Source of the DNA: Mustelus asterias
Taxonomy: Eukaryota
Direction: 5' to 3'
DNA length: 63,906 nt
Assembly (NCBI RefSeq): GCF_964213995.1
Contig: NW_027590205.1
Location: forward strand, 682,001 to 745,906
The position numbers and the translations under genes were made by a program. Shown here in pieces: positions 6,864-36,933 of the stretch. The notes below the pieces were generated by a model that searched no databases, was not told where the DNA came from, and saw only the letters and a list, made by a program, of their open reading frames with translations. Numbering within the stretch: the stretch's first letter is position 1; each line of letters starts with the position of its first letter.

Positions 6864-6912
6864 CTGCAGTCACCGTCACCATGGTCCCTTGTCCCCAAGT
6901 AGTCAAAGTAGT
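6864..6912 (-). CDS. IGHJ: Immunoglobulin heavy-chain J segment
   Basis: Encodes WGQGTMVTVTA followed by donor GTAAG; RSS heptamer 6913-6919, 23-bp spacer, nonamer 6943-6951. Confidence 0.95.
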
Positions 6913-7305
6913 CACAGTGTCACATTCGCTTGGCTGGATCATACAATAACTGGCTCTGCAAAAAATAGACAGAAAAGCCGCCATTATTTTAAATATTCAC
7001 AAACCTGAGGAAAAGCAAAGTCAATTAATATTCATGAGATTATTATTGTATTTGTGGATACCGTTCGCTCTACATAAATAACCCTTATGTTTTGTATTTC
7101 ACCGGGTATAACATGAACATGTTACTGAAAACACCAAATGATAATTGAATAGTTATCATAAATTTTCCATTTGATTCTCGCTGTTTGTACAGAGCTGGGC
7201 ATAAATAATACAGCACTGCAAATAATTTTGGATTGCAAAACAGAGCACTGACCCAGTCTCGGTCAATTAGTGCTGAGGGTTTTTGTATTGACAGTAACTG
7301 ATGTG

Positions 7306-7318
7306 CCACCCCAGTTAT
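7306..7318 (-). CDS. IGHD: IgH D2 segment (ATAACTGGGGTGG), 12/12 RSS
   Basis: V-side RSS: heptamer 7319-7325, 12 bp, nonamer 7338-7346. J-side RSS: CACATCA 7305-7299, 12 bp, ACAAAAACC 7286-7278. Confidence 0.92.
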
Positions 7319-7694
7319 CACAGTGAGACACAGCATGACAAATACTGAGTCTGACTGCTAACTGTAAAATACAGAGATTTAATTTCACTACTCTCAAAAA
7401 TCTGATTCTGCCTCTTCTAAGAGCGAATGAGTGAGATATTGTAGCTTGTCCAAGTCATTATATTTACAAGGGGTATCGGAATGCTTTTAAACCCTCTATG
7501 TAGATTTAGCATATCGTTCAACACAGATTTTACGGGAAGATGTTTATACCTTTTCACAAACTAATATTGCTTCTGCGCATTATTTCATTGAAGCCTCTTT
7601 TACTTTGAAAATCCTGCTGTGGTGCTGATCACCAATTTGAGCGATCTCTTTCCATGAGGTTTTGTATGAGGATGTCGCTGTGCTCAGCACTGTG

Positions 7695-7709
7695 ACCCCA
7701 CTGTAGTAT
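7695..7709 (-). CDS. IGHD: IgH D1 segment (ATACTACAGTGGGGT), 12/22 RSS
   Basis: V-side RSS: heptamer 7710-7716, 12 bp, nonamer 7729-7737. D2-side RSS: CACAGTG 7694-7688, 22 bp, ACAAAACCT 7665-7657; the classic shark IgM D1 arrangement. Confidence 0.95.
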
Positions 7710-8148
7710 CACAGTGACACACACTCGCACAAAAACTGCACTTACTTTCTGTTCAGTACTGCCGCTCAATATTCACTTCAAATAGACCATTATTCGTGAT
7801 GTAATTTACACTTCATGCAACAGTTTACAAAACACAATCTAAAAACATCTCCTCCAAGTATCAGAAATATTAAAACGAGCATTATATCCAGGTGTGTAAT
7901 TGCTGAAACTGTTAACAGTAAATATAAACAGAGTGAAAAGCTCAGCCCATTATGTCTGTGTGTTTTCTTGGTTTAATGTTTAATTTTCACTAAGTTAGGT
8001 TTGTCAGGAGCAGTTTGTGTTTTGCTTCTGATCACTGTCGTTAGTGTTATATTTAAAACAGATACTGACCTTCAGGTTATGATGAAAGTTGCTGAATTCC
8101 CTCTCGAGCTGTTCTTGTTCGGGTCCATCCCTAGTTCCTCTCGCTGTG

Positions 8149-8631
8149 GTCTCTTGCACAGTAATAGATGGCGGTGTCTTCGGTCTTCAGCCTCGTCATT
8201 TCCAAAGAGAAGATGTTGCTTGAAGTGTCTTTGGACGCAGTAAATCGATCCTTAATTGCTGGGGCGTAGCTGTTGCTGGATGAAGTATAGTACCACACCA
8301 GCCACTCCAGCCCCTGTCCTGGAACCTGTCGGATCCAGCTCATGGCATAGCTGCTAAGATCGAAGCCGCTGGTTTTACAGGTCAGTGTCAGGGAGCCTCC
8401 GGGACGCCCGGTCTCTGCCTCTGGCTGAGTCAACACAACCTGCGTCTGGACACCTGTAAAAATAGATCAAAAAACCCGAGGATTAATCCTGGTGTAATGA
8501 TTTTTGAGTCGGGAATATTACAGAGATGGACTAAAACTGAGACAGTAACTGTGGGAGACTTAGACAATGAAAAATAACTACTCACCGGATAAGAAAGTCA
8601 GCAACAAACTGAGAGAAATTGCCGACCTCAT
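8149..8631 (-). CDS. IGHV: IgM-type VH gene (leader exon 8631-8586, V exon 8453-8149)
   Basis: Leader [20 protein letters not shown] phase-1 intron, [39 protein letters not shown]...YYCAR with an open frame; RSS CACAGCG(8148-8142)-23-ACAAGAACA(8118-8110). Confidence 0.96.
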
Positions 8632-8720
8632 CCTTCTGGTGATTTGGGGGAAATGGTTGTGTCAGGAACTCAGTGAACAAACCACCTCCCGGACTGTAGG
8701 ATTCCGGTCCCAGTGAGCGG

Positions 8721-8730
8721 TATTTAAATA
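8721..8730 (-). promoter_or_regulatory. TATA-like element of the VH promoter
   Basis: TATTTAAATA about 90 bp upstream of the leader ATG, next to a GC-rich stretch. Confidence 0.55.
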
Positions 8731-10499
8731 CCCGGCAGAAGGGGGCGGCTTTCCAGGCGCCGCCTGTTGATTCCCTGCTGGAGGCGGCGACAGGATCCAG
8801 GTCCCACCTTCCACACCCCCCAATAGAATGGACTTCCAGATTTACAATAGGTTAATATTAAAATGGACATTTTGTCTGTGTCGGGATATTTGTTTGGCTG
8901 AATATGTTAATTGTATTGTCTCCATTATTTCTGATGGTGATATTGCAGTTCATCATTTCTTTATTTAAAATAACTAATTCCATTGTAAATATGGTGATTT
9001 TATTACCACGCCCCAAGAAGAACACAAATCTAACAATGATGAAATAACATTTTTGGAGAATAAGGAGACCGTCAGTCTATTTTGCGACAATTCTGGGTCT
9101 CTGTCACATCACAATAATAAAGCATCATTTATCAGAAGAATTTTTACCGATTTCTGTAACTAAATGCGGAGTATGAACAAAGTGATTGCATTTACAGTGC
9201 GGATGGCTATCACTGTACAATTTGGGTTTGGAGATGAGAAGAAACTCTCACACAATACAATGTTTCTCCTTATATTTGTCAAACTGCCCCAATCTCGAAG
9301 ACAGCCCTTTGAAAATAATAAGAATCCTGCCCTCCTGATAATTAAATAGTGAGTTGACAGAGAAACATAAAATTAACCTCGACTTTTGACAGAGAAGTTA
9401 ATGAATGGAACGGACACGAAGATCATTAAAATTCTTCTTCAGCATCCAGATCATTGCAGGTCACTCTATCGGCCACCGGCTGTCTAACATTCGCTGGTAT
9501 TGCGAACACAAGATATCAGGGCTTTGCACAATATCACAAGAATAAATGTTTTATCTTCCATTGAATCAGGTTATGAACTGATCATTTCTCCACTCATTGG
9601 CAGCTATGATTGGAACTCTTCAATAACAGGAATCAGATTATTCTGTACAATAGAATAGGGTGTTAATCAGGTACAAGAGACGCTGCTGTTTAAGTGTGAT
9701 ACAGAACGTTCAGAATATTCCAGGAATTCCCGCTGTTCATGTCAGTTTTATGATGTTCCCTTAATATTATTTCGATGCATTTTATGCCATTGCACTGATT
9801 TCAATTGACTGGGGAATTGGGACCATCAACATCTCTCTCTCGTATTTCATGAAGTGGTTAATAAACTGACTTTAATTATTGGAATGGCATTTACTTGGAA
9901 GTTATACAAATGAAAAAGCATCTGGTCACATTATTGTTTTGCGATACTATTTACTCACATAATGAACAGGACAGTGAATGAAAATATTTGATTAGAATGA
10001 TTACGATTTAAAATGTGTCATTCTTGTGGGAATGAAACATTTATTGTTTAAATGGCTGAATCCCATTTTGTCCGTTTTGGTTCACGCTAATCTGTCCCAC
10101 ACAGTATTTGGCAGCAATCCAGCCTTCTGCCAAATGCTCAAAGTTATTGACAGGAAGCATCTGGGGGTGTTGTGCAGCAGAACAAAGATCTGTTTCCTCA
10201 GTACTGACCGCTTGGCTGCAAGCCAACTTAAAACCATTCACATTGTCAATCAGGCCTATTTATAAATAAATCTACCCAGCAACAGTACTGCAGGCACTTT
10301 ACTTTTTTAAAGTTGTAAATCTAGATGAATTTTTCCCATCTCTAATGAAAGGAAAGTCATGCAGCTTCTCTGGCACCCTGTTAGCAACAATGATGATTTT
10401 TCCAACACATCAGGATATTGTGATAGATGGATAGAAAGAATTACAGGCAAACGGAGAAATGTCTCAGAGAGACGATACATGAACATGTATGTTTGTATT

Positions 10500-10855
10500 T
10501 TCTTTCCCTTTATCTTTCCATGGGATGTTTGGATGCAAAGACCGGCAGTTTTTGCCTGTCCCAAATTCCCTTGAACTGAGTGGTTTTCTCGGCCACTTCT
10601 GAACATATGAAGGAGTCAGCTATTTTGCTGTCCATCTGGAGTCACATCCGTGTGAGACCAGGTCGCGATGGCAGATTTCACTCATTGGGGAATCAGAGAG
10701 GGTCCGATGGTCGCCATTAGTATCTGTTCCATATCTATTAATTGAATTCAAATTCCACCAGCTGCAATGCTCCGATTTAAATCCCTGTCCCCACATCATT
10801 GTCCTGGGCCTCTGGATCACTGGGCCACTTCAATTAATATTACGTCACCATCTGC
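10500..10855 (-). mobile_element. Decayed shark tRNA-SINE
   Basis: Resembles a common shark SINE (ctggagtcacat...gatggcagatttc...aattcaaattcc). Confidence 0.55.
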
Positions 10856-11924
10856 GCAAACAATAAATGAATGACTGTGTTGATGCAGGAATGAATGACC
10901 GTTGAATGAATGATATGAATATCAGTTGGATGCCTGAATATTTTGATTGAGGAATCAGTGAACGGATTGGTGGATGCATTGTTAAATGGTACTGAAAGAT
11001 GCTGTTCCACATTCCCATATTTGTACTTGACTGGTTCATAAATTGAAACAGTTCCTTGATTCCATTTCTGTCAGTGTAATAATTTCATACTTCCAGAGGG
11101 TCTGGGTGAAATCAAACCCGATTTTCTCGGGAGTTAGCAAGCTGATCCTCACGAAAAGAAGAGGGCGTTTTCCTGCGGCACGGATGTTTCATTTCTCTGT
11201 TGATACTGAATATTCATATCCAAGATCGAAAGAGGGAACATGATTTGGCTGAGGAGGGAGGATTGTAATATTTGAAACATGTGCAGCAAATCACTCACCA
11301 TGCCCTCACCCAAATTAGTGAAGGTAACATGCTGTAAAATAAATAATGTGGCAACAGATATATTGTGAAACTCACTGGACAACTACAAGTGTTACATTAT
11401 TTCCCAAAACTGTGTAATAATGAATCGGGATTTAAAAATTCAGTAAAATCATATTAGGTGCAAGGTACTTTAATGCATTTCATTACTGTGGAAATCACCA
11501 CACCAGCTATGTATCAGGAGTTTATATTTACACATGCCGGGTTGATGCAACTGTTAATCGAGGTAATCAGCCTGATAACTGAGAGATAGATAGGAAGCAG
11601 CCTCTCGGTGCCTCAGTCACTTTCCATCAGGGTCACCCAAGTACCTTCTCGGGTAGTTTTTCCTGAAAGAATCCGAGTGTCTTGTGGAGAGGAAAGAATC
11701 TCAGAATAGACTGAAGACTGAACCCTGGATATCCCAGGAGGCAGTGACTGCTCATAAACCCAGTCATGGATTAAAATAAAGAAACGGAAATTTAAAGCAG
11801 TAACCTTTGCTGGTCCTGATGGAAGCGGCCGGATAACATATTTAACCTTTGGAATCAACTATTACTCGTCAAGGAAAAGAAAGGTTTTTTGCTGGTCTAG
11901 CACCCTTTTTGGATTCTGGACAAA

Positions 11925-12233
11925 CAAAGAACAATACAGCACAGGAACAGGCCCTTCGGCCCTCCAAGCCTGCGCCGCTCATGTGCCCAACTAGACCATT
12001 CGTTTGTATCCCTCTATTCCCAGTCTGTTCATGTGGCTATCTAGATAAGTCTTAAACGATCCCAGCCTGTCCGCCTCAATCACCTTGCTTGGGAGTGCAT
12101 TCCAGGCCCCCACCACCCTCTGTGTAAAATACGTCCCCCTGACATCTGTGTTGAACCTTGCCCCCCTCACCTTGAAACCGTGACCCCTTGTGTTCGTCAC
12201 CTCCGACCTGGGAAAAAGCTTCCCACTGTTCAC
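11925..12233 (-). mobile_element. CR1 LINE 3' fragment
   Basis: TRGHGFK...FTQRVVGAWNALP ORF2 C-terminus plus 3'UTR. Confidence 0.85.
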
Positions 12234-13659
12234 CTGAAAGCACTTTACAAATTATGGAAGTTTATTTCCAGTGTAGCCGCTGTGTGCTGTTTGAAACATT
12301 ATTTATACAGAGGACACGGGGCATTGTGGATCACCCGCCAGAAAGAATTGTCACTCTGACGCTCATAGTCAAATGAAGAGGTTTGCAAGTCCCGGTATTT
12401 TCTGGGTACTTTGAGATTGTGAACAATAGTAAGCAAAATCTTACATCAGATCTTACACCTCTCTCTCTCCTTCTTTCGCTGTCCCTCTCTCTTTCGCTGT
12501 CCCTCCCCTTTCGCTGTCCCTCTCTCTGATCAACGCTATTAATTAGAAACATTGCGCTGATTTTTTCCTACAGACTACCCTGTGACCGTTCACCATGAAA
12601 TGCAATGGTTTGCAAAGTTCACTCTCTAAGTCTCCTCTGCCATAACATTGACAATTCATCACAGGTGCTTGTCCTAAATATACCACTGTTCACAGTGAAA
12701 TGTCACTTCGCAACATTATTTCCTGTAATTTACAGCTGTCACCTGTGAGAGCGGTGAACTGTAGTTTTATGTAGTTTCGGTTAAACATAAATTCTTGGAG
12801 AGCCACCTAGTGGAATGATCTGTGTAAACACAATTATTCTCGAATATTGCGGTATGATGTTACTAAAATATTACTATGCCCGATTATTACGGATTTTATT
12901 GCTTTGATTTTATTATTCCTGCTGCTTATGCTTTTTTCATTGTTTTACTTTTGTTACGTTTACTATTTAATATTAATTCCGACATTAGTTTCCTCGTTTA
13001 CTGCCAACCAAAGTAACTAAAATTGAAACAATACCATTTAATCTCGAACGAATGTGTGAACAGGGGGTCTATTTACATAATTTGTATGTGTTGGTATTTT
13101 AAAGTCATGATTTCATTGGGATCTTGGCGGATTCATATTGCTAAAACAAGCTTCTTGGTCCAGAATGGCTGAGGCATTACAATAAATCGGCAGGGTTTAA
13201 AATAAAAGTGGAATTTTCTCTCATGTTCACTGCATTGCAATAATAACAATATGTGCAAGAATAATGCGGCAAAATCATGTAACAACATCTTTCAGGAACT
13301 TGAGAATTCGGTGAATTTCCAGGAATTAGCCTTAGATAGCCACTAGATGGAGCTGCCTCACCATGTTTGTGTGTTTACTGCTGCAGGTTGCAGTTTCATA
13401 AATACATTTAATTGGTATAATGCGGGCATACTAAGGTATTACACTTTAAAACTTTGTGAGGTCTCAGTAGAATATATTATATTGCATGAAAATATAAACA
13501 TTAGCTGGGCAGCAGCTGCGCAAATTTTATTTTTTGCAATCAATACAATTAATGTTAGAAAAATCAAAGCAACTAATTGTTTCCCTGGAGCTTCACATGA
13601 CATATAAATCTTACCACACTCCAGTGTAATGCAGAAAGCACGTAGATTTTCTGATTGAA

Positions 13660-16169
13660 ATGCATATAGCACCAAAAGGTCTGCTGTTTGCCATTTACTA
13701 TCCCGTCCTTGCCGCTATCGGGATTCCAGGTAAGGTCTGTTAGTTCGCTTTATCTCATTAATGACCCTCTCGTAATGTAATTCAGGCTAATAATAGGAAT
13801 ATTCTTTTTACGGCATAAGTGATACATTTGCTCATTGATCTATATGAATTCTAATGATATACTGATGTAACTTCCACTCTTTTAGAGTTTCATGTTTTTT
13901 TTATTTACTTTAGCTGCCTTAATTCTTCGTATTAGCGTAAAATTGTTCCACTTTTTGGCATTACTTCCCGAATTTTTTCCTCCCTCCAACAGTGTCTTCT
14001 ATTTATCTCTACACTCTCACATGTAAAGTGCACTCTTGTGTTATTGGCAATACTGCCGTGGGAGTATTATTTTTAGGTTGTGAGTTGCAAAAATTGTCCA
14101 TTTGGCATTACTGGTGTTGATGAATTCTCACTTGGATATCACTGCATCCGTACAAATTCTTGTCTGGCTGGCGCTATGTTTGTGGGTGAATTCCGACATT
14201 TGCATCACTGTTAAATTATTGATCTTGTTTATCGCTGACATTGACAGTGACGAAGTAAATTGCATAAATGGTTCATGGTTTGAGGGATTAGAATATTGGT
14301 CGATTTTCGGATGAAAATAAGAAAATATTTTATTGAATAGTCATTGTAAGGTTCCGAGTTGTTAATAGCTGTGTGACGCATGTAGCAGCCGCCCTTTGCT
14401 GTATTGTTTACATTTGCTTGAACTGACAAAGCAGAGTGTTTTTGCCCGAGCCCCGAATGGACAGTGCATAAAACTGTCTCGGCTCTTTACTATTAACTGC
14501 TGCGGATGGTACCACGTTGAGTACAGCTGAGTTCTGGGCTTCTTATTGCTCGTATCATCTGTCATGATTGAGCAATGTTCCCAGCTTTCATATTGTTTTT
14601 GATATTGACTGAGGCCAGGTATCTGGTGACAGCTATCACATCAAAGACGCAAAGTTTTGAGTTCAAACATCCACTGCAGGTCAAAGTTGATCATTATTCG
14701 GAGAAATGCTGTTCAACCCTGAGGAAATGTTGCATTGCAGGTGGGCCATTCTCCTGTTGCCAAGTCATCATCTGGCTCAGATTGGCACAGAACGTCTCAG
14801 GTAATTATCAGGTCAAGAAACTTGATTTACCACTATGTCCTATTCAAAAAACCCTCTGCAAAATCAGAGAAACGCTCATTGTCCATTCGCTATTCCTGAA
14901 GATGATTATGATCAAGTTGATTTAATGGAATTGCCACAATCATTTTACAGTAATTCATTCAATGTGACCACGTTCAGACCCGGGCGAGATGGAATGTGCT
15001 TTCTGGTTGGATTTAAGACATGCGTTGTTTTGTGCTTTTGTTACCGAGTGGAATGATTGCTATGATTGCCTGGTGACTTGATTTCTTTTTCTAGCCTATT
15101 TCCCACAGTGTTGTAATGTGATTTCAATGCAATTCTCTAACGGTTCTATTGATATGCGCCATTAAAAAATGATATGAAAATGATCGAACTTACTTCGAAT
15201 TCGGATGCTGATATTCATCAAAACTAAACCAGTCACCATTTTTTTTCCTCTTTTACAGCTAACTTGGCAGTGATTGTGATCTTGTCTCGAAGATCATGTG
15301 GTCTCTCCGGATGTATTCGGTGTTACGTCGTGTCGATGGCAGTTACGGACCTCCTGGTCATTATCACAACCGTGATATTAAACAAGATTGCTGGTATTTA
15401 TTTCCCAGTCAGTTTCCTGTCGATAACACCAATATGCAATCTCCGCACTGTGCTAATCTACTCAGCAATAGACAGTTCAGCATGGTTAACGGTCGCTTTC
15501 ACTTTTGATCGATTTGTAGCTATTTCCTGTCAGAAGATGAAAATAAAATACTGCAAGGAGAAAACAGCAGCATGGGTGATAGGGATAATCTCTGCTCTGA
15601 GCTTTGTAAAAAATGGCTTCTTGTATTTTGTGTTTGAACCTCTATACGTAATTAATAATATGCCGTGGTTCTGTGTGGTGAAATCGATATTCTATACATC
15701 AGTTGCATGGGCCGCATACGAGTGGATTTGTTCCATTTTAATGCCCTGCATCCCGTTCATTGTGGTTTTATTGCTCAATGCCCTGACCGTCAGACACATT
15801 CTCGCGGCCAACAAAGCCCGCAGGAGACTCCAGACACTGAGCAATGGCGAGAATCAGGGTGATGCACAGATGGATAAGAGGAGAAGGTCCATGGTTTTGC
15901 TCTTTGCAATCTCGGGTAGTTTCATTTTGTTATATTCATTATTTTTCACAACGATCCTCTATATCCAAATTGCAGAGGTTCCTTATTCCTCAGTTCCTGA
16001 TATCAGTGAACCATCATTTATCTTGGAAGAAAGCGGACATATGCTTCAGTTGTTGAGTTCCTGTACCAACCCATTTATTTACGCTGGGGTGCAGTCTAAA
16101 TTCAGAACAGAGTTAAAAAATGTTGTGAACTTCCCACTGAGCCGACTTGTTAAATTACTTAGGTTTTGA
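13660..16169 (+). CDS. Class A GPCR, GPR139/GPR142-like; exon 1 13660-13729, exon 2 15259-16169 (~326 aa)
   Basis: Exon 1 MHIAPKGLLFAIYYPVLAAIGIP with GTAAG donor; acceptor ttttacag restores ANL; seven hydrophobic segments with MAVTDL, FDRF and NPFIY motifs; frame intact. Confidence 0.88.
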
Positions 16170-17487
16170 GAAGAGGAAAATTATGCATGAATTTTTCATT
16201 TAAGCTCCAAAAATTTCCGGGCTTGATCATAGCACTCACGGCCGCCCTCCCAATTTTGAGTCACGCTTAATCATTCACCAAATATGTGAATATAATTATA
16301 TGGGAGAGATTCTCGATTCGATCTGCATTTTCACCCAAAAAAAAGCTTTCCAGTTCTCTTCTCGGTACAGCCTCGAGGACTGTGTTCCTGTCAACTTCGA
16401 GGGCATTTGCAGTTGGAATCAGAAGGTTATGTCTCCTGAGGTTACCAGCCCATTGCCAGTGTACTCGAAGTAACGGCAGGAGAGACAGACCGGTGAGCAC
16501 AGCATAAAACAGCCAAACGTGTAGTGAGGCAGCGTCCATCTTGGCGGAAGACTAGTGGGGGGGGGGGGGGCGTCTGGGGGGTGGGAGTAGAGGTACTCAG
16601 ATTCAAAGTGATGACAAAAACCTGGTGTGTGCTCGGTGGTGTCAGATGCTGCAGCTGCTGTGGACATGAGAACATCTGGAAAATAGTTGACAGGCTATGC
16701 ACTCTCATGCGTGGAGTTTTATTCATGAAGGATGAATTTAGAGCAGCTGGGAAGGCCAATTCTCTGTCTCTCCACAATTCCTTCACATGCAAATGTCATA
16801 AGTGGACTCACCGTCCATTCTTCCATTCTGAATTAACGATATTGTTATATAATTGCATTTTAGAAGTTTTTATTTGAGTAGCTCAGGTTCTTTATGATGT
16901 AATTATTGGAAGAAATCAATTTCATTCTAAAATTAAGTGGCATTGACACGAATGTTGCCATAAAATAAAGGGAAAAGCTGAAGCAGGAAGATTCATTGCC
17001 TCTTTGACATTCAGATTGCTCAGAGATATCTTTATTTGACACTATTCCGTGCATGCTTTCAGTGAATCGAGCAGAATTCGTCTCCCAATGCGTGCTCCGT
17101 AACCTGTGCTCTCGAAGTTCGTAAGAACTGGTGAACTGTGTCAAACGATAATTGCTCTCTTCGTTTCATGTTTTTGCTGATGGCTCTTCATATGTATATT
17201 TGAAATAAATTCACCAGTAAACTCATGCAACGCAATGAGAAGTCGTTTCAATCCTCATTTTATCAATTAAATGTTGGTGGACAAGTACAGTCAGTAGACA
17301 TATGACCTTGATATTATCATTCTTATAGTGCATGCAACTTGAACTTGCCCTTCCTGTATGTTCGAATTCCAAAATAATACGGTAAAAAAACAGCGGATGA
17401 ATGTTTTCTCTCGATTACGAACTTGTAACTGCTTTCATCTCTTAGTCACCGAAACGGCTGTCTGTTTGACAAGTAAATATTAACATG

Positions 17488-25940: not shown

Positions 25941-27775
25941 GAACATAGAACATAGAACATAGAACATTACAGCGCAGAACAGGCCCTTCGGCCCACGATG
26001 TTGCACCGACCAGTTAAAAAAAAACTGTGACCCTCCAACCTAAACCAATTTCTTTTCGTCCATGAACCTATCTACGGATCTCTTAAACGCCCCCAAACTA
26101 GGCGCATTTACTACTGATGCTGGCAGGGCATTCCAATCCCTCACCACCCTCTGGGTAAAGAACCTACCCCTGACATCGGTTCTATAACTACCCCCCCTCA
26201 ATTTAAAGCCATGCCCCCTCGTGCTGGATTTCTCCATCAGAGGAAAAAGGCTATCACTATCCACCCTATCTAAACCTCTAATCATCTTATATGTTTCAAT
26301 AAGATCCCCTCTTAGCCGCCGCCTTTCCAGCGAAAACAATCCCAAATCCCTCAGCCTCTCCTCATAGGATCTCCCCTCCATACCAGGCAACATCCTGGTA
26401 AACCTCCTCTGCACCCTCTCCAAAGCCTCCACATCCTTCCTGTAATGTGGGGACCAGAACTGCACACAGTACTCCAAGTGCGGCCGCACCAGAGTTGTGT
26501 ACAGTTGCAACATAACGCTACGACTCCTAAATTCAATCCCCCTACCAATAAACGCCAAGACACCATATGCCTTCTTAACAACCTTATCTACTTGATTCCC
26601 AACTTTCAGGGATCTATGCACACATACACCTAGATCCCTCTGCTCCTCCACACTATTCAAAGTCCTCCCGTTAGCCCTATACTCAACACATCTGTTATTC
26701 CTACCAAAGTGAATTACCTCACACTTCTCCGCATTAAACTCCATCCGCCACCTCTCGGCCCAACTTTGCAACCTGTCTAAGTCTTCCTGCAAACTACGAC
26801 ACCCTTCCTCACTGTCTACCACACCACCGACTTTGGTGTCATCAGCAAATTTGCTAATCCACCCAACTATACCCTCATCCAGATCATTAATAAATATTAC
26901 AAACAGCAGTGGCCCCAAAACAGATCCCTGAGGTACACCACTTGTAACCGCACTCCATGATGAATATTTACTATCAACCACCACCCTCTGTTTCCTATCC
27001 GCTAGCCAATTCCTGATCCAATTTCCTAGATCACCCCCAATCCCATACATCTGCATTTTCTGCAGAAGCCTACCATGGTGAACCTTATCAAACGCCTTAC
27101 TAAAATCCATATATACCACGTCCACTGCCTTGCCCCCATCCACCTCCTTGGTCACTTTCTCAAAAAACTCAATAAGGTTAGTAAGGCACGACCTACCTGC
27201 CACAAAACCATGCTGACTATCACCTATCAATTCATTACTCTCCAAATAACTATAAATCCTATCCCTTATAATTTTTTCCAACATCTTGCCGACAACAGAA
27301 GTGAGACTCACCGGTCTATAATTCCCGGGGAAGTCTCTGTTCCCCTTCTTAAACAATGGGACAACATTCGCTAACCTCCAATCTTCTGGTACTATACCAG
27401 AGGCCAACGACGACCTGAAGATCAGAGCCAGAGGCTCTGCAATCACTTCTCTTGCCTCCCAGAGAATCCTTGGATAAATCCCATCCGGACCAGGGGATTT
27501 ATCTATTTTCAGACCCTCCAGAATATCCTGCACATCCTCCTTATCAACTGTAATACTGTCTATTCTACTCCCTTGCAACCCAGTGTCCTCCTCAGCTATA
27601 TTCATGTCCCCTTGCGTGAACACCGAAGAGAAATATTGGTTCAATGCTTCACCAATCTCCTCCGGTTCCACACATAACTTCCCTCTGCCATCTATAACTG
27701 GCCCTAAACTTGCCCTAACCAACCTTCTGTTCTTGACATACCTATAGAACGCCTTAGGATTCTCTTTAACCCTAC
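25941..27775 (-). mobile_element. 5'-truncated CR1 LINE with uninterrupted RT frame
   Basis: About 578 codons from KENPKAF to the stop with PQGSVLGP and FADD; (atgttct)n tail; inserted in an older LINE fragment. Confidence 0.93.
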
Positions 27776-28553
27776 CCTCTACTCCCTCTATACCAAGGAT
27801 ATCCTTCCTCAAATAGTAAAGCTCTGATTTCAATCAGTCAATATTTCTTCTCCACAAATATAAAATGGGACAATTCTGAAGCTGCATTTGATAATTGATC
27901 ACTTTTAAAATGTGTCGCCTGACAGAAAGGCACCTGATCCATATCTTTTCTAAGTACAGCTTAACGAAGTTATTCACCTGGGGTAATCTGCAAATTTGTT
28001 CGAATTTGATCGGAGAATGATTGGATTTGATCCGGGAATAATATGACCGCCAAATGTGACATTTCACAATACTGATAATGGATGAGCTCTGCGGGGAATA
28101 TCGTTCAGCTGGGGCTGTATTGTCCCCTTCCCTTTCTGTGCATTTTCGATGAGATCCGACTCTCTTTTCCTGACACAGAACACTTGATTATCGACCTGCA
28201 CTAGTTTTTGTATGAGGCCCATGGGAGGCTCATGCACTGTGGGTCTCAGTGCACAGTAATACACGGCGCTGTCAGTCATCTTCAAATCTTTCATTGACAA
28301 GTGAAAAGTGCTTTGTTTCTGGTTGAGGTTCCCGCTGAAATGTTCAAAGCCGGGAGCCGTCTCGTTAAACCCATAACTATCGGCTCTGAGCAGATACCGA
28401 GGAGCTCGGTGTGTATACTGGCGATACCAGAACAGGTAATGTTGTACAGCTGAACTCGGTACCGAGTAACTGCAGGGTATTGCTGAATCTTCACCCTCTG
28501 CTGCTTCAACTCCTGGTTCTGACTGGGATACTGAGTCTCCGTTACTCACGTCT

Positions 28554-28872
28554 GCCTTTGGCTAAGATCAAGTGTAGTATGGATCGCCTGCACTTGGTTG
28601 AGGTCATTAGGTTACGCTGAGGCTTCATATGTTTCATATGAAGCAATTTTTAAAAGCGGCATCTCGGCCTTTTGGCTAAGATGCAAATGAGCTCAAGTCT
28701 TGGAGGAGGAACCTCCCCCTTCTCCAATCAGCTTGACTCATGTAGATCAGGCCCAGGACAGGGGGGTTTTGGTCTCCCGTCCTGTCTTGTCAGCCTGGAT
28801 CTGAAATGTCTCAACTTGTTGAGACTCTGAATTGGATTTGATTTGATTGAATTGGAAAAGTATTAAAAAAAA
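28554..28872 (+). mobile_element. U2 snRNA-headed short retroelement
   Basis: gcctttggctaagatcaagtgtagtat (U2 nt ~12-39), a second U2 piece tctcggccttttggctaagat at ~28662-28682, (gattt)n and an A-tail. Confidence 0.7.
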
Positions 28873-29014
28873 GAAAATATACAGCGGATACAAAGCGGGT
28901 TAGGAGACAGAGGAAGACAATAGTCACACAGAGCTGGGAAACGGAAATTGCACAAGGGTTGAAATATACTTTACAATATAAGATCAGAATCACTGACCTG
29001 GGATCAGAGCAATA

Positions 29015-32000
29015 GTAAGAAGTCTCACAACACCAGGTTAAAGTCCAACAGGTTTTTTTTTATTTCAAAAATATACTTTATTCACACAAAAAAAACTCTC
29101 CAATAAAACATTGCAAAATTACAGATCCAAAAGTCATAAACAGTGTAAAAAAGAATCATTTTTACAGTCCAATACCGTGCTCATTTACAAAAACATTACA
29201 TTCCATTACATTTCATTTCTTAAAACTATATACATGTGTCAGAGTTTACTGTGTGCCGTTATTTTTCAGGTTGGCACACAGTTACGCAGGCCGAGAGTAT
29301 TCTGCAGTTACCTGGCCCTCGGTCTGCCTCGGTTGAGACGCTTTACACGGTGGCCTTTCCCCATTGTGCCATGGCGGCGGCTGCCCCAAGCTTGAGCGCG
29401 TCCCTGAGCACGTAGTCCTGGACCTTGGAATGTGCCAGTCTGCAACACTCGGTCGAGGACAATTCTTTCAGCTGGAAGATCAGCAAGTTTCGGGCGGACC
29501 AAAGCGCGTCCTTCACCGAGTTGATGACCCTCCAGCAGCAGTTGATATTTGTCTCGGTGTGCGTCCCCGGAAACAGCCCGTAGAGCACAGAGTCCTGCGT
29601 CACCGAGCTGCTCGGGACGAACCGCGACAAATACCACTGCATCTCGTTCCAGACCTTCTTTGCAAAGGCACATTCCACAAGGAGGTGTGCCACCGTCTCA
29701 TCAGCCCCGCAGCCGCTTCGAGGGCAGCGTGCGGTGAGGTTGAGACCCCGGGCGTGCATAAAGGATCTGACGGGGAGTGCCCTTCTCACCACCAGCCAAG
29801 CCAGGTCTTGGTGCTTGTTTGTGAGTTCTGGTGATGAGGTATTCTGCCAAATGACATTGACAGTCCGCTCAGGGAACCATCCGACAGGATCTGCCGTCTC
29901 CTTTTCTCTCAGGGCCTCAAGGACATTACGTGCTGACCACTGCTTGATAGCCATGTGGTCAAAGGTGTGTTTCCGGAAGAATTTCTCCACGAAGGACAGG
30001 TGCTGCGGTACGGTCCAACTACTTGGAGCGTTCCGCGGCAATGTGGCCTGACCCATCCTCCGCAACACTTGGGACAGGTAGAACCTCAAAAAATAGTGGC
30101 ACTTGCTGTTGCTGTACCGAGGATCTACACACAGCTTGATGCAGCCGCACACAAAGGTGGCCATCAGGATGAGGGCGGCGTTGGGAACGTTTTTCCCTTC
30201 ATTCTCTGGAGATTTGTGCATCGCCTCCCTCCGGACACGATCCATCTTTGATCTCCAGATGAACTTAAAGATGGCCCGGGTCACTGCTGTTGCGCAGGAC
30301 TTGGGGAGAGGCCACACCTGCGCCACGTACAACAACACGGACAGAACCTCGCATTGGATCACAAGGTTCTTCCCAGTGATGGAGAGGGAGCGTTGCTCCC
30401 ACAATCCCAATTTTTGTCTGGCTTTGGCGATGCGCTCCTCCCAGTTTTTGGCGCATGCCCCTGCCGCTCTGAACCATATCCCCAGCACCTTGAGGTAGTC
30501 TACCCTAATGGTGAAGGGGACAAAGGATGTGTCAGGCCAGTTCCCAAAGAACATGGCCTCACTCTTACCCTGGTTGACTTTGGCCCCCGAGTCCAGCTCG
30601 AACTGCTCACAGACTCGGAGGAGCCTGCGAACAGATGAGGGGTCCGAGCAGAAAACAGCCACGTCATCCATGTAGAGGGAGGCTTTAACTTGCGTCCCTC
30701 CGCTGCCTGGGATTGTAACCCCTTTGATGCCTGGGTCGCTTCTGAGGGCCTCGGCAAAGGGTTCAATGCAACACACAAAAAGGACGGAGGAGAGAGGGCA
30801 GCCCTGCCTGACTCCAGACCTGATTTGAAACATATCTGATTCCCACCCATTGATTGAAACTGCGCTACTGATGTCTGTGTAGAGCAGTTGGATCCAAATG
30901 CGGATTCCCTCCCCAAAGCCCATTTTGGAGAGCACATCCATCATGTAGCTGTGCGATATTCTGTCAAACGCCTTCTCCTGGTCTAGACTGATGAGGCAGG
31001 TGTCCACCTGCCTGTCCTGCACGTTCGGCGATCGTATCCCTGAGTAGCGCGAGGCTATCAGAGATCTTCCTGCCGGGTACAGCACAGGTTTGATCAGGAT
31101 GGATCACTGACCCCAGAGCAGACTTGACCCGGTTGGTGATGACCTTGGCCAGAATCTTGTAATCCACATTCAATAGTGAAATAGGTCTCCAATTTCTAAT
31201 CTCTTCCCATTCCCCCTTCTGCTTGTAGATGAGGGTAATGATGCCTTTCCTCATGGATTCTGACATGCTGCCTTCCAGAAGCATACTCTCGTATACTTCC
31301 AGGAGGTCCGGGCCCGTCAAGTCCCACAACGCCGAGTAAAGCTCAGCCGGTAAGCCGTCGCTACCGGGAGTTTTACCCTTCTGAAGGGACTCGACTGCCT
31401 TTGTCAGCTCATCCAGAGCTACCGGTCTGTCCAGGCTCTCCCGCTCGCCGTCGTCCAAGACTTGCGTGATAGACGACAGGAAAGACTGGGAGGCCGTGCT
31501 GTCTGTTGGCTTCAGGTCATACAGTCCGGCATAGAAGGATTTGCAAATCCTCAGGATGTCAGACTGCGATGACCTTACAGAGCCATCTTCTTCCTTCAGG
31601 CTTGTGATCACAGAGGTTTCTCTGTGCACCTCCTGGAAGAAGAAACGCGAGCACGTTTCGTCCTGCTCCACAGAGCGGACCCTGGACCGGAAGATAACCT
31701 TGGAGGCCTCCGAGGCAAAGAGCGAGGCTTGCTGGCTCTTCACCTCCCGGAGGTCCTCCTTGACATCCACCCCCATCGACTGCAGTTGGAGTAGCTCCTG
31801 CATGCTTTTCTGGAGTCGGGACATTTCCCCCCGTCTCTCCCTGGCCTTCTGAACCCCTTTTCGGATAAAGAATCTCTTGATGTTGCCCTTGATGGTTTCC
31901 CACCAGAGCGATGGAGACTCAAAGAAGGGTTTCACGGTTCTCCAACCGTGGTAAACCCTCTTGAGTTCCTCGAGGTTCTCTGGGGTCAACAGTTCTACAT

Positions 32001-32316
32001 TAAGCTTCCAGGACCCCCTGCCCACTTTCTGGTTTTCCTCCAGCTGACAGTCTGCCAGCAGGAGGCAGTGGTCAGAGAAGAACACCGGCTTGACGTCGGT
32101 GGACCTGACCATGAGCGCGCGGGATGCAAACATGAAGTCGATCCTGGAGCGGACAGACCCGTCTGGCCGCGACCCCTTTGGTAGCAAATACCATAAGCTT
32201 TCGGAGCACAGCTCCTTCGTCAGATGGAGTGGAACCTGAGTAAACCTGTTGGACTTTAACCTGGTGTTGTGAGACTTCTTACTGTGCTTACCCCAGTCCA
32301 ACGCCGGCATCTCCAC
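29015..32316. mobile_element. Penelope pLTR insertion (inverted pieces), host of a nested Tx1
   Basis: pLTR pieces at 29015-29053 and 32177-32233 (minus) and 32241-32316 (plus); flanking duplication atcagagcaata at 29003-29014 and 32317-32328. Confidence 0.8.
29054..32176 (-). mobile_element. Tx1-clade (L1-like) non-LTR retrotransposon, 5'-truncated
   Basis: APE end (SRID...SDH), RT (WRPISLLNVDYKI, QGCPLS, YMDD), C-terminal C-x4-C...H-x4-C knuckle; frameshift near 31030; AATAAA and poly(A). Confidence 0.92.
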
Positions 32317-32934
32317 ATCAGAGCAATAACCAGGGTCAGGAACATTTTCACCCCCATGGTTCCAATCTGAGCTCCAGAATTAGGGAGGGTGATCTCTGTC
32401 TGAACGGGACCTGGAATGTGAGAAATTGAAAGAATTAGCAAGGTGTGATGCGATTGGCTGGGATTTATTTTCCTCGCCCATTTTTATATCTGCAAAAAGT
32501 CACTCTGCAGAAGGCGACTGTGATGTTTGATAAGTGATCAGAGCGCGCCCTCCCGTGGACAGTACCAGCGCATTGGAAACAGATGCAGAACGAAGAGCCC
32601 AGATATGTACAGTCTGAGAAATATAAAAACCCAGAAATATCTAGTACAGGTACAACACGGACAAGAGGAAATATCCGCTCCACATGCACACCATTAATAC
32701 CCCTTCGGGTTTTAAGGCTTTAAGAAAGTTATCTCTCAATCTCCGAAACTCAGTGGATACAAATCCAGCATCAGTACCCTTCTGCTTATCCAGAAAACCC
32801 GCTCATACCTGGTAATACATTCTCTGGACGTTTGCTAACGCATTACCATCTTTCTATAGATAAGGAATCAAGTATTGTACACAATACTCCAGATGTGATT
32901 TCTCCAATGCCCTACACAACAGAAACATACTCGA

Positions 32935-33325
32935 ATTTAGAAGAATGGGTGGAGATCAAATTGAGGAATACAAGATGACAAAAGATATGGATAAAGTAGA
33001 CGTGGAGCGGATGTTCCTCTTGTGGGGCATTCTTCGAGGAGAGGGCACAGACTTTGGATAAGGGGTAGCAAATTTAAAACAGTTGAGGAGAAACTACTTC
33101 TCCCAAAGGGTTGTGAATCTGTGAATTCCCTACCCCAAAGTGCGGTGGATGCTTGAGTAAACGTAAGGAGGTGTTAGACAGATTTTTTAATTGGGAAAGG
33201 ATTGAAGGGTTATGAGAGAAAGTAGGAAAATGGGGATGAGGATCTTATCAGCCATGATCGAATGGTGGAGCGGACTCGATGGGCCGAATGTCCCAATTCT
33301 GTTCCTATATCTTATGAACTTATGA
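32935..33325 (+). mobile_element. Decayed CR1-type LINE 3' fragment
   Basis: gaggagaaactacttctcccaaagggttgtgaatctgtg and typical 3'UTR. Confidence 0.7.
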
Positions 33326-33671
33326 CCCTTCCTATTTAATGATACATTCCCCAGCAATAAATGGTAACATTTTATGACGTTTCTAATTAATTGCTGTACC
33401 TGTATATTAGCCCTTCTTGATTCACGGCCTTGGACAGCCCAACCCCTCTGTACCTCAGAATTTTGTGATCTCTCACCATTTAGATATTAAGCATATTTAA
33501 TGTTCATCATGCCAAAATGGACATTTTCACATTTGCCTATATTACACTAAATTTGACGGAGGTTTGCCAATTCTTTTAACCTATTTATGTCCCTTGATCG
33601 TCTCCTTACATCCTCTTCACCACTTATTTTCCTATCTACCTTTTTGTCGTCATCAAACTTTGCATCCATAT

Positions 33672-33908
33672 CTGCTCTATAAAATATTACTGTGTATTCT
33701 GATAATTTAATCCGTTCTCCTGGATGACTGCTCTGTGAATATCACTGTATAATCCAACAATTAATCCGGTTCTGCTGGATTCCTGCTCTGTAACATATCA
33801 CTGTGTAATCCAATAATTAATCCAGTTCTCCTGGATTCCTGCTCTGTAACATATCAGTTGTAACCCAGCAATTAATCCAATTCTCCCGGATTCCTGCTCT
33901 ACAATATA
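33672..33908. repeat. Minisatellite, ~55-56-bp unit, ~4 copies
   Basis: ctgctct...aattaatcc..ttct.ctggat recurs at 33672, 33728, 33783, 33839 and 33894. Confidence 0.85.
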
Positions 33909-34721
33909 CCGAGTAGAGGGCAACTAAATAACAATAAGGGAGGAGAAGATGAAATATGAGTGTAAGCTAGCCAGTAATATAAAAGTACATAGAAAGAATT
34001 TTTTTTTCAAGATATAAAAGGTAAGAGAGAGGCAAAGAGTAGTCATTGGACCACTGGAAAATAAGGCTGGAGAAGTAATAATAGGAAACAAAGCAATGAC
34101 AGAGGAACTGAATATTTACTTTGCATCAGTCTTCACGGTGGAAGACACCAGTGGAAATAGTAGGTGTGAATGGCCAAACGGCAGAGAAGCTGAAATCAGA
34201 GGGTAAGCTGTGACAGATGAAGATAAGGGGGGAGGAGGGAGATTGGTGGGAGAGAGGTAAAATTGGTGGGAGAGAGGTGAAAACGGGGAGAAAGGGAAGC
34301 AAAGGTGGAGAAAAGATAAGGAAAGGGGAAAGAATAGGAGGCGGATAAGAAAGACAATACAGGAATAAAAGGAAGAGAACAGTTAAAAAATTAATAAAAT
34401 TAACCGACTTCCTGTTCTCACTCCGCCTTACAGGTTGAAGCGATTAAATGGACAAGTTTGGGTCTCATCCCTTTCCAGGTCCCCGAGGGGGAACAAACTC
34501 CTTAGTTTATTTCTCCCGACGCTGAGAGCCAAGGGAGCCGTGCGCTGATTGGGTCATTTGAAGACAATGGAATTCTAAGGTTGGATGTCAATGAATGACG
34601 GTGTCAGGAATGAACCAATCAACAACGGCCCGGATGTAACTCAACTTCTCACCCGCTCTTGACAATTAAAATGTTAACTTCAACCCTCTCTGCTCACATC
34701 CCGCTCGACCTCTCTGCAAAC

Positions 34722-35614
34722 ATGTCTCCTGTGACTCTGAGCTTATTCCTCACAGCTGCAGCTCTACTAACCGGTAGGTTCACAAGTTACAAACTCTGCG
34801 TTTCACATATTTACCATTCACTGCATTCAATTGAGCAGTTCGATTAACGCACTGGTAAAAATATATATTGATTCTAATATCAATTAGAATCATCTTTGTC
34901 TCACCAAGGGAGGAGGCAAAATACCTCAGCTGAATGAGAGTGAAGAGTTAAGGTGGGATTGCAGGCCCCGCCGGAGCCGCTGAGGGACTTTGACAAACTT
35001 GATAAAATCTGGATGAAAGCGTTGACAAACCCGAGATCTATAAACCCACGGACAGTTTAGTTTCCCCATCAAATAACGTGAAACGAAGGCGAGGATCTGA
35101 TCTCCTCAGGAGGTGTTCATTTAACGGAGTGTCATTTAACCGCGACAAACACGTTCCCGTTACAACCTGCGTGTTGCGGGATTTATATTCCTGTTTAGAT
35201 CCTGTGATTCGTTTTTCAGATTATTGGCCAGGGTGACGGGCCGAATCCGGCCATTAAACAAAGTGAACTGACATCGTTTAATTTAGCATTACTCTTGGCT
35301 CTTACAGGACAATGTGGAGGAGATCCAGTTTCACAGATACCGGCTGCAGTCACAGTGAGTGAAGGAGATGATGTTCAGTTATTCTGTAATTATACAACTG
35401 CAAGCTTTGACAATTATTACCTATTCAGGTACCGTCAGTATCCCAGCGGATCCATGGAGTACCTGCTGAGGGGAAGCAAATATACCGGGAACAAAGAGAG
35501 ATTCCCAGGGGACCGTTTATCAGCAGAGCTCAATGATACAACCCGTACCGTCCCGCTGAAAATGTGTAAAACAGAGCTGGCAGACGCCGGGGTTTATTAC
35601 TGCGCACTGAGACC
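34722..35614 (+). CDS. TCR alpha/delta V segment 2 (leader 34722-34773, V exon 35308-35614); ORF with W41R
   Basis: Leader MSPVTLSLFLTAAALLTG; DPVSQIP...C...YLF-R-YRQY...DAGVYYCALR; RSS CACAGAG(35615-35621)-23-ACAAAAACT. Confidence 0.88.
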
Positions 35615-35727
35615 CACAGAGACACAGAGCTGGGCTGAACCTGTACAAAAACTCTCAAAACCTCACTCAACATGAACAGGATAAACAGGAGTCCCAAGAT
35701 AAACAGGAGTTGGGACGGTGAGAATAG

Positions 35728-35799
35728 TGGTTCCACCGAGATTCGGACTCAGACTGCTGGATTGAAAGTCCAACGTGCTCACCGTTACATCATGAAACC
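35728..35799 (-). pseudogene. tRNA-Gln-derived pseudogene (anticodon now reads TTC)
   Basis: 72 nt GGTTTCATGATGTAACGGTGAGCACGTTGGACTTTCAATCCAGCAGTCTGAGTCCGAATCTCGGTGGAACCA; D-stem mismatch, T-loop TCC. Confidence 0.8.
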
Positions 35800-36102
35800 A
35801 ACAGGCGCCGGTATAAGGCAGGAGGTCTTTCACTCAGATCTCACACATACACATTCTTGGTCAATAAGGGCTGTTGCTGTTTGACACCAACTGCTCCTTT
35901 CTATCGACAGAGCGTTAAAGAGGAGCGAAAATGAAAAAGAGAAACACTGATGTTGCAGGCATCTGTCGACAGAGGCCCAGCAATGTGCATTGTAATAGCA
36001 GTGGAATAGGCTGGCAAATTGTCCTCTCGATTCGCACTTGGTGAAAACTTTAAGCGGAATGTCCTTCAGCAAAGCAATCATCGGCATTGACAAAGAAAAG
36101 CA

Positions 36103-36174
36103 AGGTGCTGCGGAGATTTGAACTCAGATCGCTGGATTCAAAGTCAAGAGTAATACCCATTACACCACAGAACC
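36103..36174 (-). pseudogene. tRNA-Gln(TTG)-like pseudogene
   Basis: 72 nt GGTTCTGTGGTGTAATGGGTATTACTCTTGACTTTGAATCCAGCGATCTGAGTTCAAATCTCCGCAGCACCT; stem mismatches, B-box intact. Confidence 0.8.
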
Positions 36175-36414
36175 CAGAAAATCGCAAACAGATGCAAATG
36201 ACTTATGAAACACAACTACTTCTGCTGATATCTCCCGGTACGGCTTGCGAAGGAAATTATTTGCTATAGATTTGGAGGGCTGTGTTGTTCACTGGATTTA
36301 CTACAATAAAGTTTATAAAATGTCTATCTCTTTGATGAAGCACAGGCGACAAACTGTCAGGACTGCTCCTCTATAGGTTTTTGTACGACTCGTATTGATC
36401 TTTACAACACTGTG

Positions 36415-36933
36415 CCTCGACTGCACAGAAATAGGTAGCAGTGTCTGTCACCCGAGTGCCACCAACATTCAGAACGCTTCGTTTCTCTGCAACAATGTTC
36501 CGAGCACTGATCCTGCCCTGATCGCTGGTACCGCTCACCAGGTGCTGCACGGTTCGGTCCGGGTATTGTCTGTACCATTGTAGGACCAGTCCAGTTGCAG
36601 TAGTGGAACATTTCAACGATGCCAGGTCTATCTCAGTAACCACCACAGACTCTGGAGACTGTGATACCTCTTCACTACCAGCGGCATCTGGGAAGGATAT
36701 GTAGATACGCAATAATATCATAAAATTAAAATCTCATAGTGCAATACAATGTTGCACAATGAAGTACAATTGAATGCATAATACAAGATAACACAACAAA
36801 ACAGAATACTATTTAACAGAACGTAGCATTGCTAATGTGTGAAATATCGCTGTCAGAAATAGCGACCACACTTACACTGAGGGAAGAGTAAGAAATCCAG
36901 GGAGATGATCACTGAAGCGAAGCTGAGCTTCAT
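36415..36933 (-). CDS. TCR alpha-like V segment 3 (leader 36933-36876, V exon 36687-36415), apparently functional
   Basis: Leader MKLSFASVIISLDFLLFPQ, GT-AG intron, EEVSQSPES...C...WYRQYP...DTATYFCAVE; consensus RSS CACAGTG(36414-36408)-23-ACAAAAACC. Confidence 0.88.

What the first reader, a model, noticed from the sequence alone, without database searches (positions are those of the whole stretch)
6864..36933. IgM V-D-D-J minilocus about 20 kb from TCR alpha/delta V segments
Seen: a complete germline IgH V-D1-D2-J set and three TCR alpha/delta-type Vs with 23-RSS in one window, with no C exon in the ~6.8 kb downstream of JH. Known: sharks make IgHV-TCRdelta chimeric rearrangements and have IgH V segments linked to the TCR alpha/delta locus. 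Inference: V1 and V3 lie in the same orientation upstream of the IgH D segments, so their 23-RSS could join the 12-RSS of D1/D2 by deletion, giving a TCRV-DH-JH hybrid, the reverse of the known chimera. Caveat: a scaffold gap separates the two parts.
Basis: partly seen in the sequence, partly recalled or inferred. Interest (0 to 1): 0.72.

Follow-up and report, generated by a model that had tools for sequence, protein, structure and literature searches.

The report
Ordinary shark IgM beside TCR Vs
This is a complete, ordinary shark antibody (IgM) gene lying near three T-cell-receptor V segments, a layout already published for sharks; only one of the three is both intact and oriented to join the antibody gene, and it more likely joins T-cell-receptor genes instead.

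Summary
The segments are real. The window holds an IgM VH-D1-D2-JH with the usual signals and three TCR alpha/delta-type Vs. Two premises fail. Cmu is not missing: CH1-CH4, the secretory tail and a TM exon lie just beyond the window start (JH-CH1 9.3 kb). The N run is bridged colinearly in two paralogous copies. V1 has lost its own leader to a retroelement; V2 faces away and lacks the conserved Trp; only V3 is an intact, co-oriented candidate, 28.6 kb from D1. The same contig carries a TCR-delta-type D-J-C unit about 0.6 Mb away, to which V3 (and the VH) would join by inversion. TCR Vs 28-64 kb upstream of co-oriented IgM genes are already listed for great white shark (PMC12227049, Table S1), and nurse-shark IgH rearranges within its minilocus (96 of 97 clones, PMC2435157). 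In this assembly the deletion-compatible geometry is rare (1 of 84 VH within 50 kb), and CTCF-like motifs bracket the V-D-D-J. Public contigs showed IgM V-D-D joints and listed no hybrid joint, a weak test. Earlier scan notes report the same interleaving and the multiplied delta genes on other pieces of this genome. Verdict: known layout; the reverse hybrid is legal by the 12/23 rule, unshown, probably a rare by-product.

The parts
6504..6540 (+). Two tandem CTCF-like motifs in the JH-Cmu intron (binding untested)
   Evidence: the 6527 site is identical in the C71 paralogue, the 6504 site differs by one base
6864..6912 (-). IgM JH (WGQG frame open, GT donor); one extra base against the C71 paralogue puts the YFDY codons out of register with WGQG
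6913..6951 (+). JH 23-RSS
7278..7305 (-). D2 3' 12-RSS (non-consensus heptamer, consensus nonamer)
7306..7318 (-). IgM D2
7319..7346 (+). D2 5' 12-RSS
7657..7694 (-). D1 3' RSS, spacer 22 (23 in the C71 paralogue)
7695..7709 (-). IgM D1
7710..7737 (+). D1 5' 12-RSS
8110..8148 (-). VH 23-RSS (3 mismatches, same in the C71 paralogue except one spacer base)
8149..8453 (-). IgM VH exon, open, AG acceptor
   Evidence: 96% identical to the C71 cluster
8586..8631 (-). VH leader exon, GT donor
12800..13353 (.). Divergent pair of CTCF-like motifs (12800-12813 minus, 13340-13353 plus) between VH and the TCR Vs, in DNA shared with TCR-V-rich contigs (binding untested)
28203..28241 (-). V1 23-RSS (1 mismatch)
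28242..28552 (-). V1: TCR alpha/delta-type V exon, open frame, but homology to family members stops at 28554; own intron and leader not found; likely pseudogene
28555..32300 (-). Non-LTR retroelement (RVT_1, zf-RVT) replacing V1's 5' flank; variants switch from the V1-block type to the V2/V3-block type at about 30.1-30.7 kb
32315..32586 (-). Orphan TCR-V-type promoter/leader (72% to V1-family upstream DNA), cut off by a repeat before a usable donor
34722..35614 (+). V2: leader and V exon in frame, conserved Trp replaced by Arg, faces away from the IgM cluster
35615..35653 (+). V2 23-RSS (non-consensus heptamer)
36376..36414 (-). V3 23-RSS, perfect consensus
36415..36687 (-). V3: intact TCR alpha/delta-type V exon
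36876..36933 (-). V3 leader exon, GT donor, splices in frame

Best explanation
This is a complete shark IgM gene cluster (VH-D1-D2-JH-Cmu1-4 with secretory tail and TM exon) that likely rearranges within itself, and the three TCR V segments are likely passengers brought next to it by segmental duplication within the antigen-receptor complex. Shown: the segments, signals, Cmu exons, the block mosaic and a TCR-delta-type D-J-C unit on the same contig. Inferred: V1 is a dead copy, V2 is impaired and misoriented, and intact V3 would be used in T cells with TCR D/J segments, either by a 0.6-Mb inversion to the delta unit on this contig or with another delta or alpha unit. The VH could reach the same delta D by inversion, which would give the known VH-TCR-delta chimera. 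A V3-to-D1/D2 deletion is allowed by the 12/23 rule and would at most be a rare by-product in thymocytes.
For: Cmu1-4, tail and TM exon present, frames open, 4 of 4 C exons score as C1-set; a 22.7-kb block is 96-97% identical to a full cluster on C71, which has no TCR V exon of its own in the 44 kb fetched upstream of its VH. VH RSS 373 bases from D1 against 20,466 (V1) and 28,639 (V3). Delta-type unit at C173:118-146 kb, plus strand: one 12-D-23 segment, six J, C, connecting and TM exons; 10 of the 13 best PDB matches to the TM exon are named delta chains. V1/V2/V3 families have many close copies on other Ig-bearing contigs. Upstream co-oriented TCR V within 50 kb: 1 of 84 VH hits; within 70 kb 7 co-oriented against 34 opposite. 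Published layout: PMC12227049 section 6 and Table S1. 96 of 97 partial rearrangements within the minilocus and no IgH transcripts in thymocytes in nurse shark (PMC2435157 passages). Two contigs in run X20 join VH to D2 and one in X23 joins D1 to D2. CTCF-like motifs: 5 against 0.68 expected, 0 of 100 shuffles, four of them bracketing the V-D-D-J.
Against: No call shows which D or J V3 really joins. V3's RSS is a perfect consensus while the VH's has 3 mismatches. In nurse-shark thymocytes most IgH are partly rearranged and accessible, and the PCRs quoted there are primed in VH/leader and JH, so they could not see a TCR-V-to-D joint. The delta unit is 0.6 Mb away and the contig ends 27 kb beyond V3, so a nearer partner may be unseen. 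With 2 mismatches allowed the CTCF-like count is not above chance (13 against 10.4), and the motif is a recalled consensus. The VH/TCR-V counts come from capped hit lists and from duplicated, non-independent copies. No paralogue spans the whole IgM-to-V3 distance, so long-range order rests on this one assembly.
Confidence: 0.82

Rival explanations
1. Functional reverse chimera: V3 joins D1 or D2 by a 29-kb deletion and gives an expressed TCR-V/D/JH/Cmu chain that pairs with a light chain.
For: V3 is intact with a perfect 23-RSS, upstream and co-oriented; Cmu is complete, so a joint would have a constant region; the opposite chimera is documented (PMC5931798, PMC12227049 passages).
Against: V1 is leaderless; the geometry occurs at 1 of 84 VH within 50 kb and is absent from the 44 kb fetched upstream of the 96%-identical paralogue, so it looks recent and unselected; shark IgH rearranges within the minilocus; no such chain appeared in the listings and passages of six literature searches, though four key papers could not be read.
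Confidence: 0.05
2. Non-functional by-product: V3 or V1 joins a free 12-RSS of D1/D2 now and then in thymocytes, where TCR Vs and IgH D segments are both open to RAG, giving DNA joints and perhaps sterile transcripts but no surface receptor.
For: 12/23 compatibility and 20-29 kb distance; widespread partial IgH rearrangement in thymocytes and one apparent inter-locus joint among 97.
Against: CTCF-like motifs lie between VH and the TCR Vs; the VH RSS is met first, 373 bases from D1; no loose end listed at the V3 coding end, and three contigs cross it in germline form (only the best-supported rows are shown). This reading is compatible with the best explanation and differs only in frequency.
Confidence: 0.25
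3. Assembly artefact: the IgM block, the V1 block and the V2/V3 block were joined by the assembler through shared LINE copies and are not neighbours in the animal.
For: Block boundaries fall in or next to repeats; the V1 and V2/V3 blocks switch inside a 3-kb shared retroelement, with 99.1% and 99.3% twins on C187 and C87; the contig is a small unplaced piece and the window is its end.
Against: The N run is bridged in two paralogues; the switch zone is mixed over about 0.5 kb and has private variants, more like a crossover with conversion than a clean join; all pieces between VH and V1 match other antigen-receptor contigs; the same layout is published in another shark.
Confidence: 0.1

Closest known systems
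Elasmobranch antigen-receptor complex (AgRC), Flajnik et al. 2025, PMC12227049 (read: abstract, sections 6 and 15, passages, Table S1 in full; supplementary PDF not read)
   Same: States that TCR alpha/delta-type V exons lie between IgH clusters. Table S1, great white shark chr 27, lists co-oriented TCR V upstream of IgM models at about 28, 41, 61 and 64 kb (three of the four IgM are marked 'pseudo?').
   Different: The passages read discuss VH-to-TCR-delta joining only, not TCR-V-to-IgH-D joining, and describe TCR alpha/delta as a translocon, whereas this assembly holds 19 delta-type C exons.
Shark IgM minilocus VH-D1-D2-JH-Cmu (nurse shark; Malecek et al. 2008, PMC2435157, passages)
   Same: One VH, two D, one JH within 2 kb, about 400 bases apart, then Cmu.
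   Different: JH-CH1 is 9.3 kb here (including a 965-base insertion absent from the C71 paralogue) against 6.3-6.8 kb quoted for nurse shark; JH carries one extra base.
IgHV-TCR-delta chimeric rearrangements of sharks (Criscitiello 2010, Deiss 2019; seen only as cited in PMC12227049, PMC5931798, PMC5192425, PMC6795676)
   Same: An IgM VH with a 23-RSS lies on one contig with a delta-type D-J-C and could join it, here by inversion over 572 kb.
Inverted V downstream of TCR C-delta (mentioned in PMC12227049 section 15; human TRDV3 recalled)
   Same: V3 and V1 lie downstream of and opposite to a delta-type D-J-C.
   Different: Distance is 0.6 Mb with IgM clusters and other genes between; use is not shown.

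Membership tests
Shark IgM minilocus | One VH, two D, one JH within about 2 kb | tested here: met
   6864-8631
Shark IgM minilocus | RSS order V-23, 12-D1-22/23, 12-D2-12, 23-J (pattern recalled) | tested here: met
Shark IgM minilocus | Own Cmu1-4 with secretory tail and TM exon downstream, same strand | tested here: met
   C173:679.6-672.5 kb
Shark IgM minilocus | This very copy rearranges and is expressed | tested here: inconclusive
   V-D-D and D-D joints in contigs of runs X20 and X23 belong to this family but cannot be assigned to this copy
TCR alpha/delta V gene (functional) | V-set exon closest to TCR alpha V, 23-RSS | tested here: met
   V3 clear; V1 and V2 lists mixed with multi-V antibody constructs; 23-RSS
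TCR alpha/delta V gene (functional) | Leader, splice sites, Cys-Trp-Cys intact | tested here: not met
   Met for V3 only (1 of 3); V1 lacks its own leader and intron, V2 has Trp to Arg
Elasmobranch antigen-receptor complex | IgH clusters interleaved with TCR alpha/delta V, NAR-TCR and delta D-J-C on one piece of DNA | tested here: met
   whole contig C173 scanned: NAR-TCR-type V pair, Ig-type Vs, delta-type D-J-C, TCR Vs, a Cmu relic and this cluster
Elasmobranch antigen-receptor complex | Linkage to PSMB5 and UrIg2 | not tested
   contig is unplaced; no search made
TCR delta unit at C173:118-146 kb | 12-D-23 segment before 12-RSS J segments and an alpha/delta-type C with TM | tested here: met
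   delta rather than alpha is inferred from the D and the NAR-TCR cassette; automatic names of relatives say 'alpha chain-like' and the single best TM match is an alpha chain by 0.4 bit
Ig/TCR chimeric rearrangement (TCR V on IgH D-J-C) | Somatic junction joining TCR V to IgH D or JH | tested here: inconclusive
Ig/TCR chimeric rearrangement (TCR V on IgH D-J-C) | Expressed chain paired at the cell surface | not testable with these tools
   needs repertoire sequencing and protein work

The most novel reading that the evidence does not exclude
V3 joins this cluster's D1/D2 in developing lymphocytes and yields a TCR-V/D/JH/Cmu chain, so that V exchange in the shark antigen-receptor complex runs both ways; the contig gives a clean, primer-testable case because V3 and Cmu are both intact, and the CTCF-like bracket would be the boundary that normally suppresses it.
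Probability: 0.07. Interest if true: 0.75.

Novelty: already known. Interest (0 to 1): 0.2.

Why it matters
As it stands it is one more instance of a published layout. It offers a concrete locus for a cheap test of whether Ig/TCR V exchange is one-way, and of whether the known VH-TCR-delta 'trans' rearrangements are in fact cis inversions to nearby delta units. [quoted passage not shown]

Tried and rejected
Orphan or C-less minilocus: rejected, Cmu lies just outside the window. N run as a break between unrelated DNA: rejected (the third V1 paralogue, C88, matches only the right flank). Public runs: no RNA holder listed; 5 of 23 listed runs were laid, all as assembled contigs; they cannot show absence of rare joints. 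Protein searches for longer chains carrying V1 or V3 gave two uninformative gene models and nothing. The Pfam TCR-alpha-C family PF09291 found no match in the genome, so the alpha locus was not located. A DNA search across 10.5-19.5 kb was swamped by a LINE; the narrower one found only partial matches. The 5' flank of V1 looks like U2 snRNA from recall, but Rfam at gathering threshold reported only two tRNAs, so the label is not claimed. The V1-family pseudogene 1 kb before a Cmu2-4 relic at C173:332 kb was checked as a possible inherited TCR-V/Cmu fusion: it keeps a decayed RSS and no D or J, so it is not a joint. Four key papers were not held, so whether the reverse hybrid was already sought and missed is open.
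Full report
Observation. An RSS scan and translation confirm an IgH V-D-D-J on the minus strand: leader 8586-8631, VH 8149-8453 with a 23-RSS, D1 7695-7709 flanked 12 and 22, D2 7306-7318 flanked 12 and 12, JH 6864-6912 with a 23-RSS. Three more V-set exons carry 23-RSSs: V1 (minus), V2 (plus), V3 (minus). V3's nearest solved relatives are TCR alpha chains; V1 and V2 give lists in which TCR alpha chains are mixed with multi-V antibody constructs. Seven RSSs with at most two mismatches were found against a mean of 1.08 and a maximum of 6 in 100 shuffles.

The cluster is complete. The window is the last 63.9 kb of a 746-kb contig, C173. Just beyond the window start lie CH1, CH2, CH3, CH4 with the secretory tail, and a TM exon, all in open frames on the same strand; 4 of 4 C exons score as C1-set. 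JH to CH1 is 9,288 bases, including a 965-base insertion absent from a paralogous cluster on C71 that is 96-97% identical over 22.7 kb. JH has one extra base against that paralogue, which shifts its 5' codons but leaves the WGQG frame and donor intact. So the lack of a C exon in the window reflects where the window was cut.

The gap. The 198-N run is the only N in the contig. Its flanks align colinearly, about 105 bases apart, in two of three V1 paralogues fetched (C159, C187); the third (C88) matches the right flank only. The N run is therefore not the weak point. The weaker points are block borders. The window is a mosaic: an IgM block shared with C71 up to 11.5 kb, mixed pieces shared with other antigen-receptor contigs from 12.6 to 17.4 kb, a V1 block (to 32.2 kb), and a V2/V3 block 99.3% identical to C87 (29.1-41.8 kb). 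The last two overlap in a retroelement in which the window's variants switch from one type to the other at about 30.1-30.7 kb, with a mixed zone and private variants. I read this as a crossover between repeats; an assembly join is not excluded.

Which TCR V could act. V1's similarity to its family stops at 28554, at the splice acceptor, where the retroelement begins; no V1-family leader was found in 17-20 kb fetched upstream of its three closest copies, and the leader-like piece at 32.3-32.6 kb belongs to the other block and is cut by a repeat. V1 is likely a pseudogene with a live RSS. V2 is in frame but has Arg for the conserved Trp, a non-consensus heptamer, and faces away. V3 has a leader, correct splice sites, an open frame and a perfect RSS. 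So 1 of 3 is a real candidate, 28,639 bases from D1, against 373 for the VH.

A natural target. A note from earlier in the scan led me to fetch the whole contig. At 118-146 kb on the plus strand lie a 12-D-23 segment, six J segments, a C exon, a connecting exon and a TM exon, preceded by a NAR-TCR-type V pair and Ig-type Vs. Ten of the 13 best PDB matches to the TM exon are named delta chains, though the single best is an alpha chain by 0.4 bit; named relatives are shark gene models at 50-94% identity with automatic 'alpha chain-like' names. I call it delta because of the D segment and the NAR-TCR cassette (inference). V3, V1 and the VH lie downstream of it in the opposite orientation, 572-600 kb away, so each could join its D by inversion. 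The assembly holds 19 such C exons at 81-100% identity; some may be haplotigs.

How common is the geometry. Using 84 of the 150 VH hits (the IgM-type ones, 69% identity or more) and 199 TCR-V hits on the contigs that carry them (picked), 18 of 84 VH have a TCR V within 50 kb and 43 of 84 within 70 kb. An upstream, co-oriented TCR V within 50 kb occurs at 1 of 84, this one; within 70 kb the upstream pairs are 7 co-oriented and 34 opposite. The lists are capped and the copies are related, so this is descriptive, but it shows no conservation of the deletion-compatible layout. The 96%-identical cluster on C71 has no TCR V exon of its own in the 44 kb fetched upstream.

Boundary motifs. A recalled CTCF consensus matches five times at one mismatch, against 0.68 expected and 0 of 100 shuffles; at two mismatches the count is not above chance. 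Two sites lie behind JH and a divergent pair lies between VH and V1, so a convergent pair encloses the V-D-D-J. The 6527 site and one at the 3' end of Cmu are kept on C71; the pair at 12.8-13.4 kb is outside the shared block. Binding and function are untested.

Reads. No RNA holder was listed. Contigs of 5 of 23 runs were laid. Two contigs in X20 join VH to D2 with inserted letters and one in X23 joins D1 to D2: IgM-internal joints of this family. On V2-V3, three listed contigs cross the V3 coding end in germline form and no listed loose end lies there (105 loose-end rows not shown). This is a weak test.

Literature. PMC12227049 (abstract, sections 6 and 15, passages, Table S1) states that TCR alpha/delta-type V exons lie between IgH clusters; its table lists, in great white shark, co-oriented TCR V about 28, 41, 61 and 64 kb upstream of IgM models. 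PMC2435157 (passages) reports that 96 of 97 partial IgH rearrangements stayed within the minilocus, and that thymocytes rearrange IgH partly but do not transcribe it; the PCRs quoted there could not detect a TCR-V joint. PMC5931798, PMC6795676 and PMC5192425 (passages) describe only the VH-on-TCR-delta direction. Six searches brought no report of the reverse hybrid in what I read, but four key papers were not held and the supplementary PDF of PMC12227049 was not read.

Verdict. A real but known arrangement: a complete IgM cluster among duplicated TCR V segments. The reverse hybrid is formally possible for V3, unshown, and most likely at best a rare thymocyte by-product (about 0.25); an expressed receptor is unlikely (about 0.05-0.07). 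Interest 0.2.

Noticed in passing
G000:C173:94,000-146,000 (L088-L094): A self-contained TCR-delta-type unit (NAR-TCR-type V pair, Ig-type Vs, one D, six J, C); 19 such C exons in the assembly. Noted before by the scan on other pieces.
   Followed up: partly
window 6504-6540, 12800-12813, 13340-13353; C173:671740: CTCF-like motifs bracket the IgM V-D-D-J; the JH-intron site and a site at the 3' end of Cmu are kept in the C71 paralogue.
   Followed up: partly
genome-wide: TCR Vs upstream of IgM VH within 70 kb are mostly in the opposite orientation (34 against 7); may reflect one ancestral duplication unit or selection against deletional joins.
   Followed up: partly
G000:C173:328,700-332,400: Broken V1-family TCR V with decayed RSS 1 kb upstream of a Cmu2-4 relic lacking V-D-J-CH1.
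   Followed up: partly
G000:C173:99,717-100,000: Five tandem perfect 23-RSSs, 61 bases apart, behind the NAR-TCR supporting V.
   Followed up: no
window 29054-32174: Crossover between two duplicated blocks inside a shared non-LTR retroelement, at about 30.1-30.7 kb.
   Followed up: yes
window 35727-35799 and 36102-36175: tRNA-Glu and tRNA-Gln genes between the facing RSSs of V2 and V3.
   Followed up: no
window 15228-16166 (+): Intronless rhodopsin-family GPCR frame between VH and V1, with many copies on antigen-receptor contigs.
   Followed up: no
window 43035-44513 and 55200-56402 (-): C2H2 zinc-finger array frames (Pfam-scanned for the first; the second seen); similar arrays recur along the contig.
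   Followed up: no
window 6897: One extra base in JH against the C71 paralogue and one public contig; real variant or assembly error not decided.
   Followed up: partly
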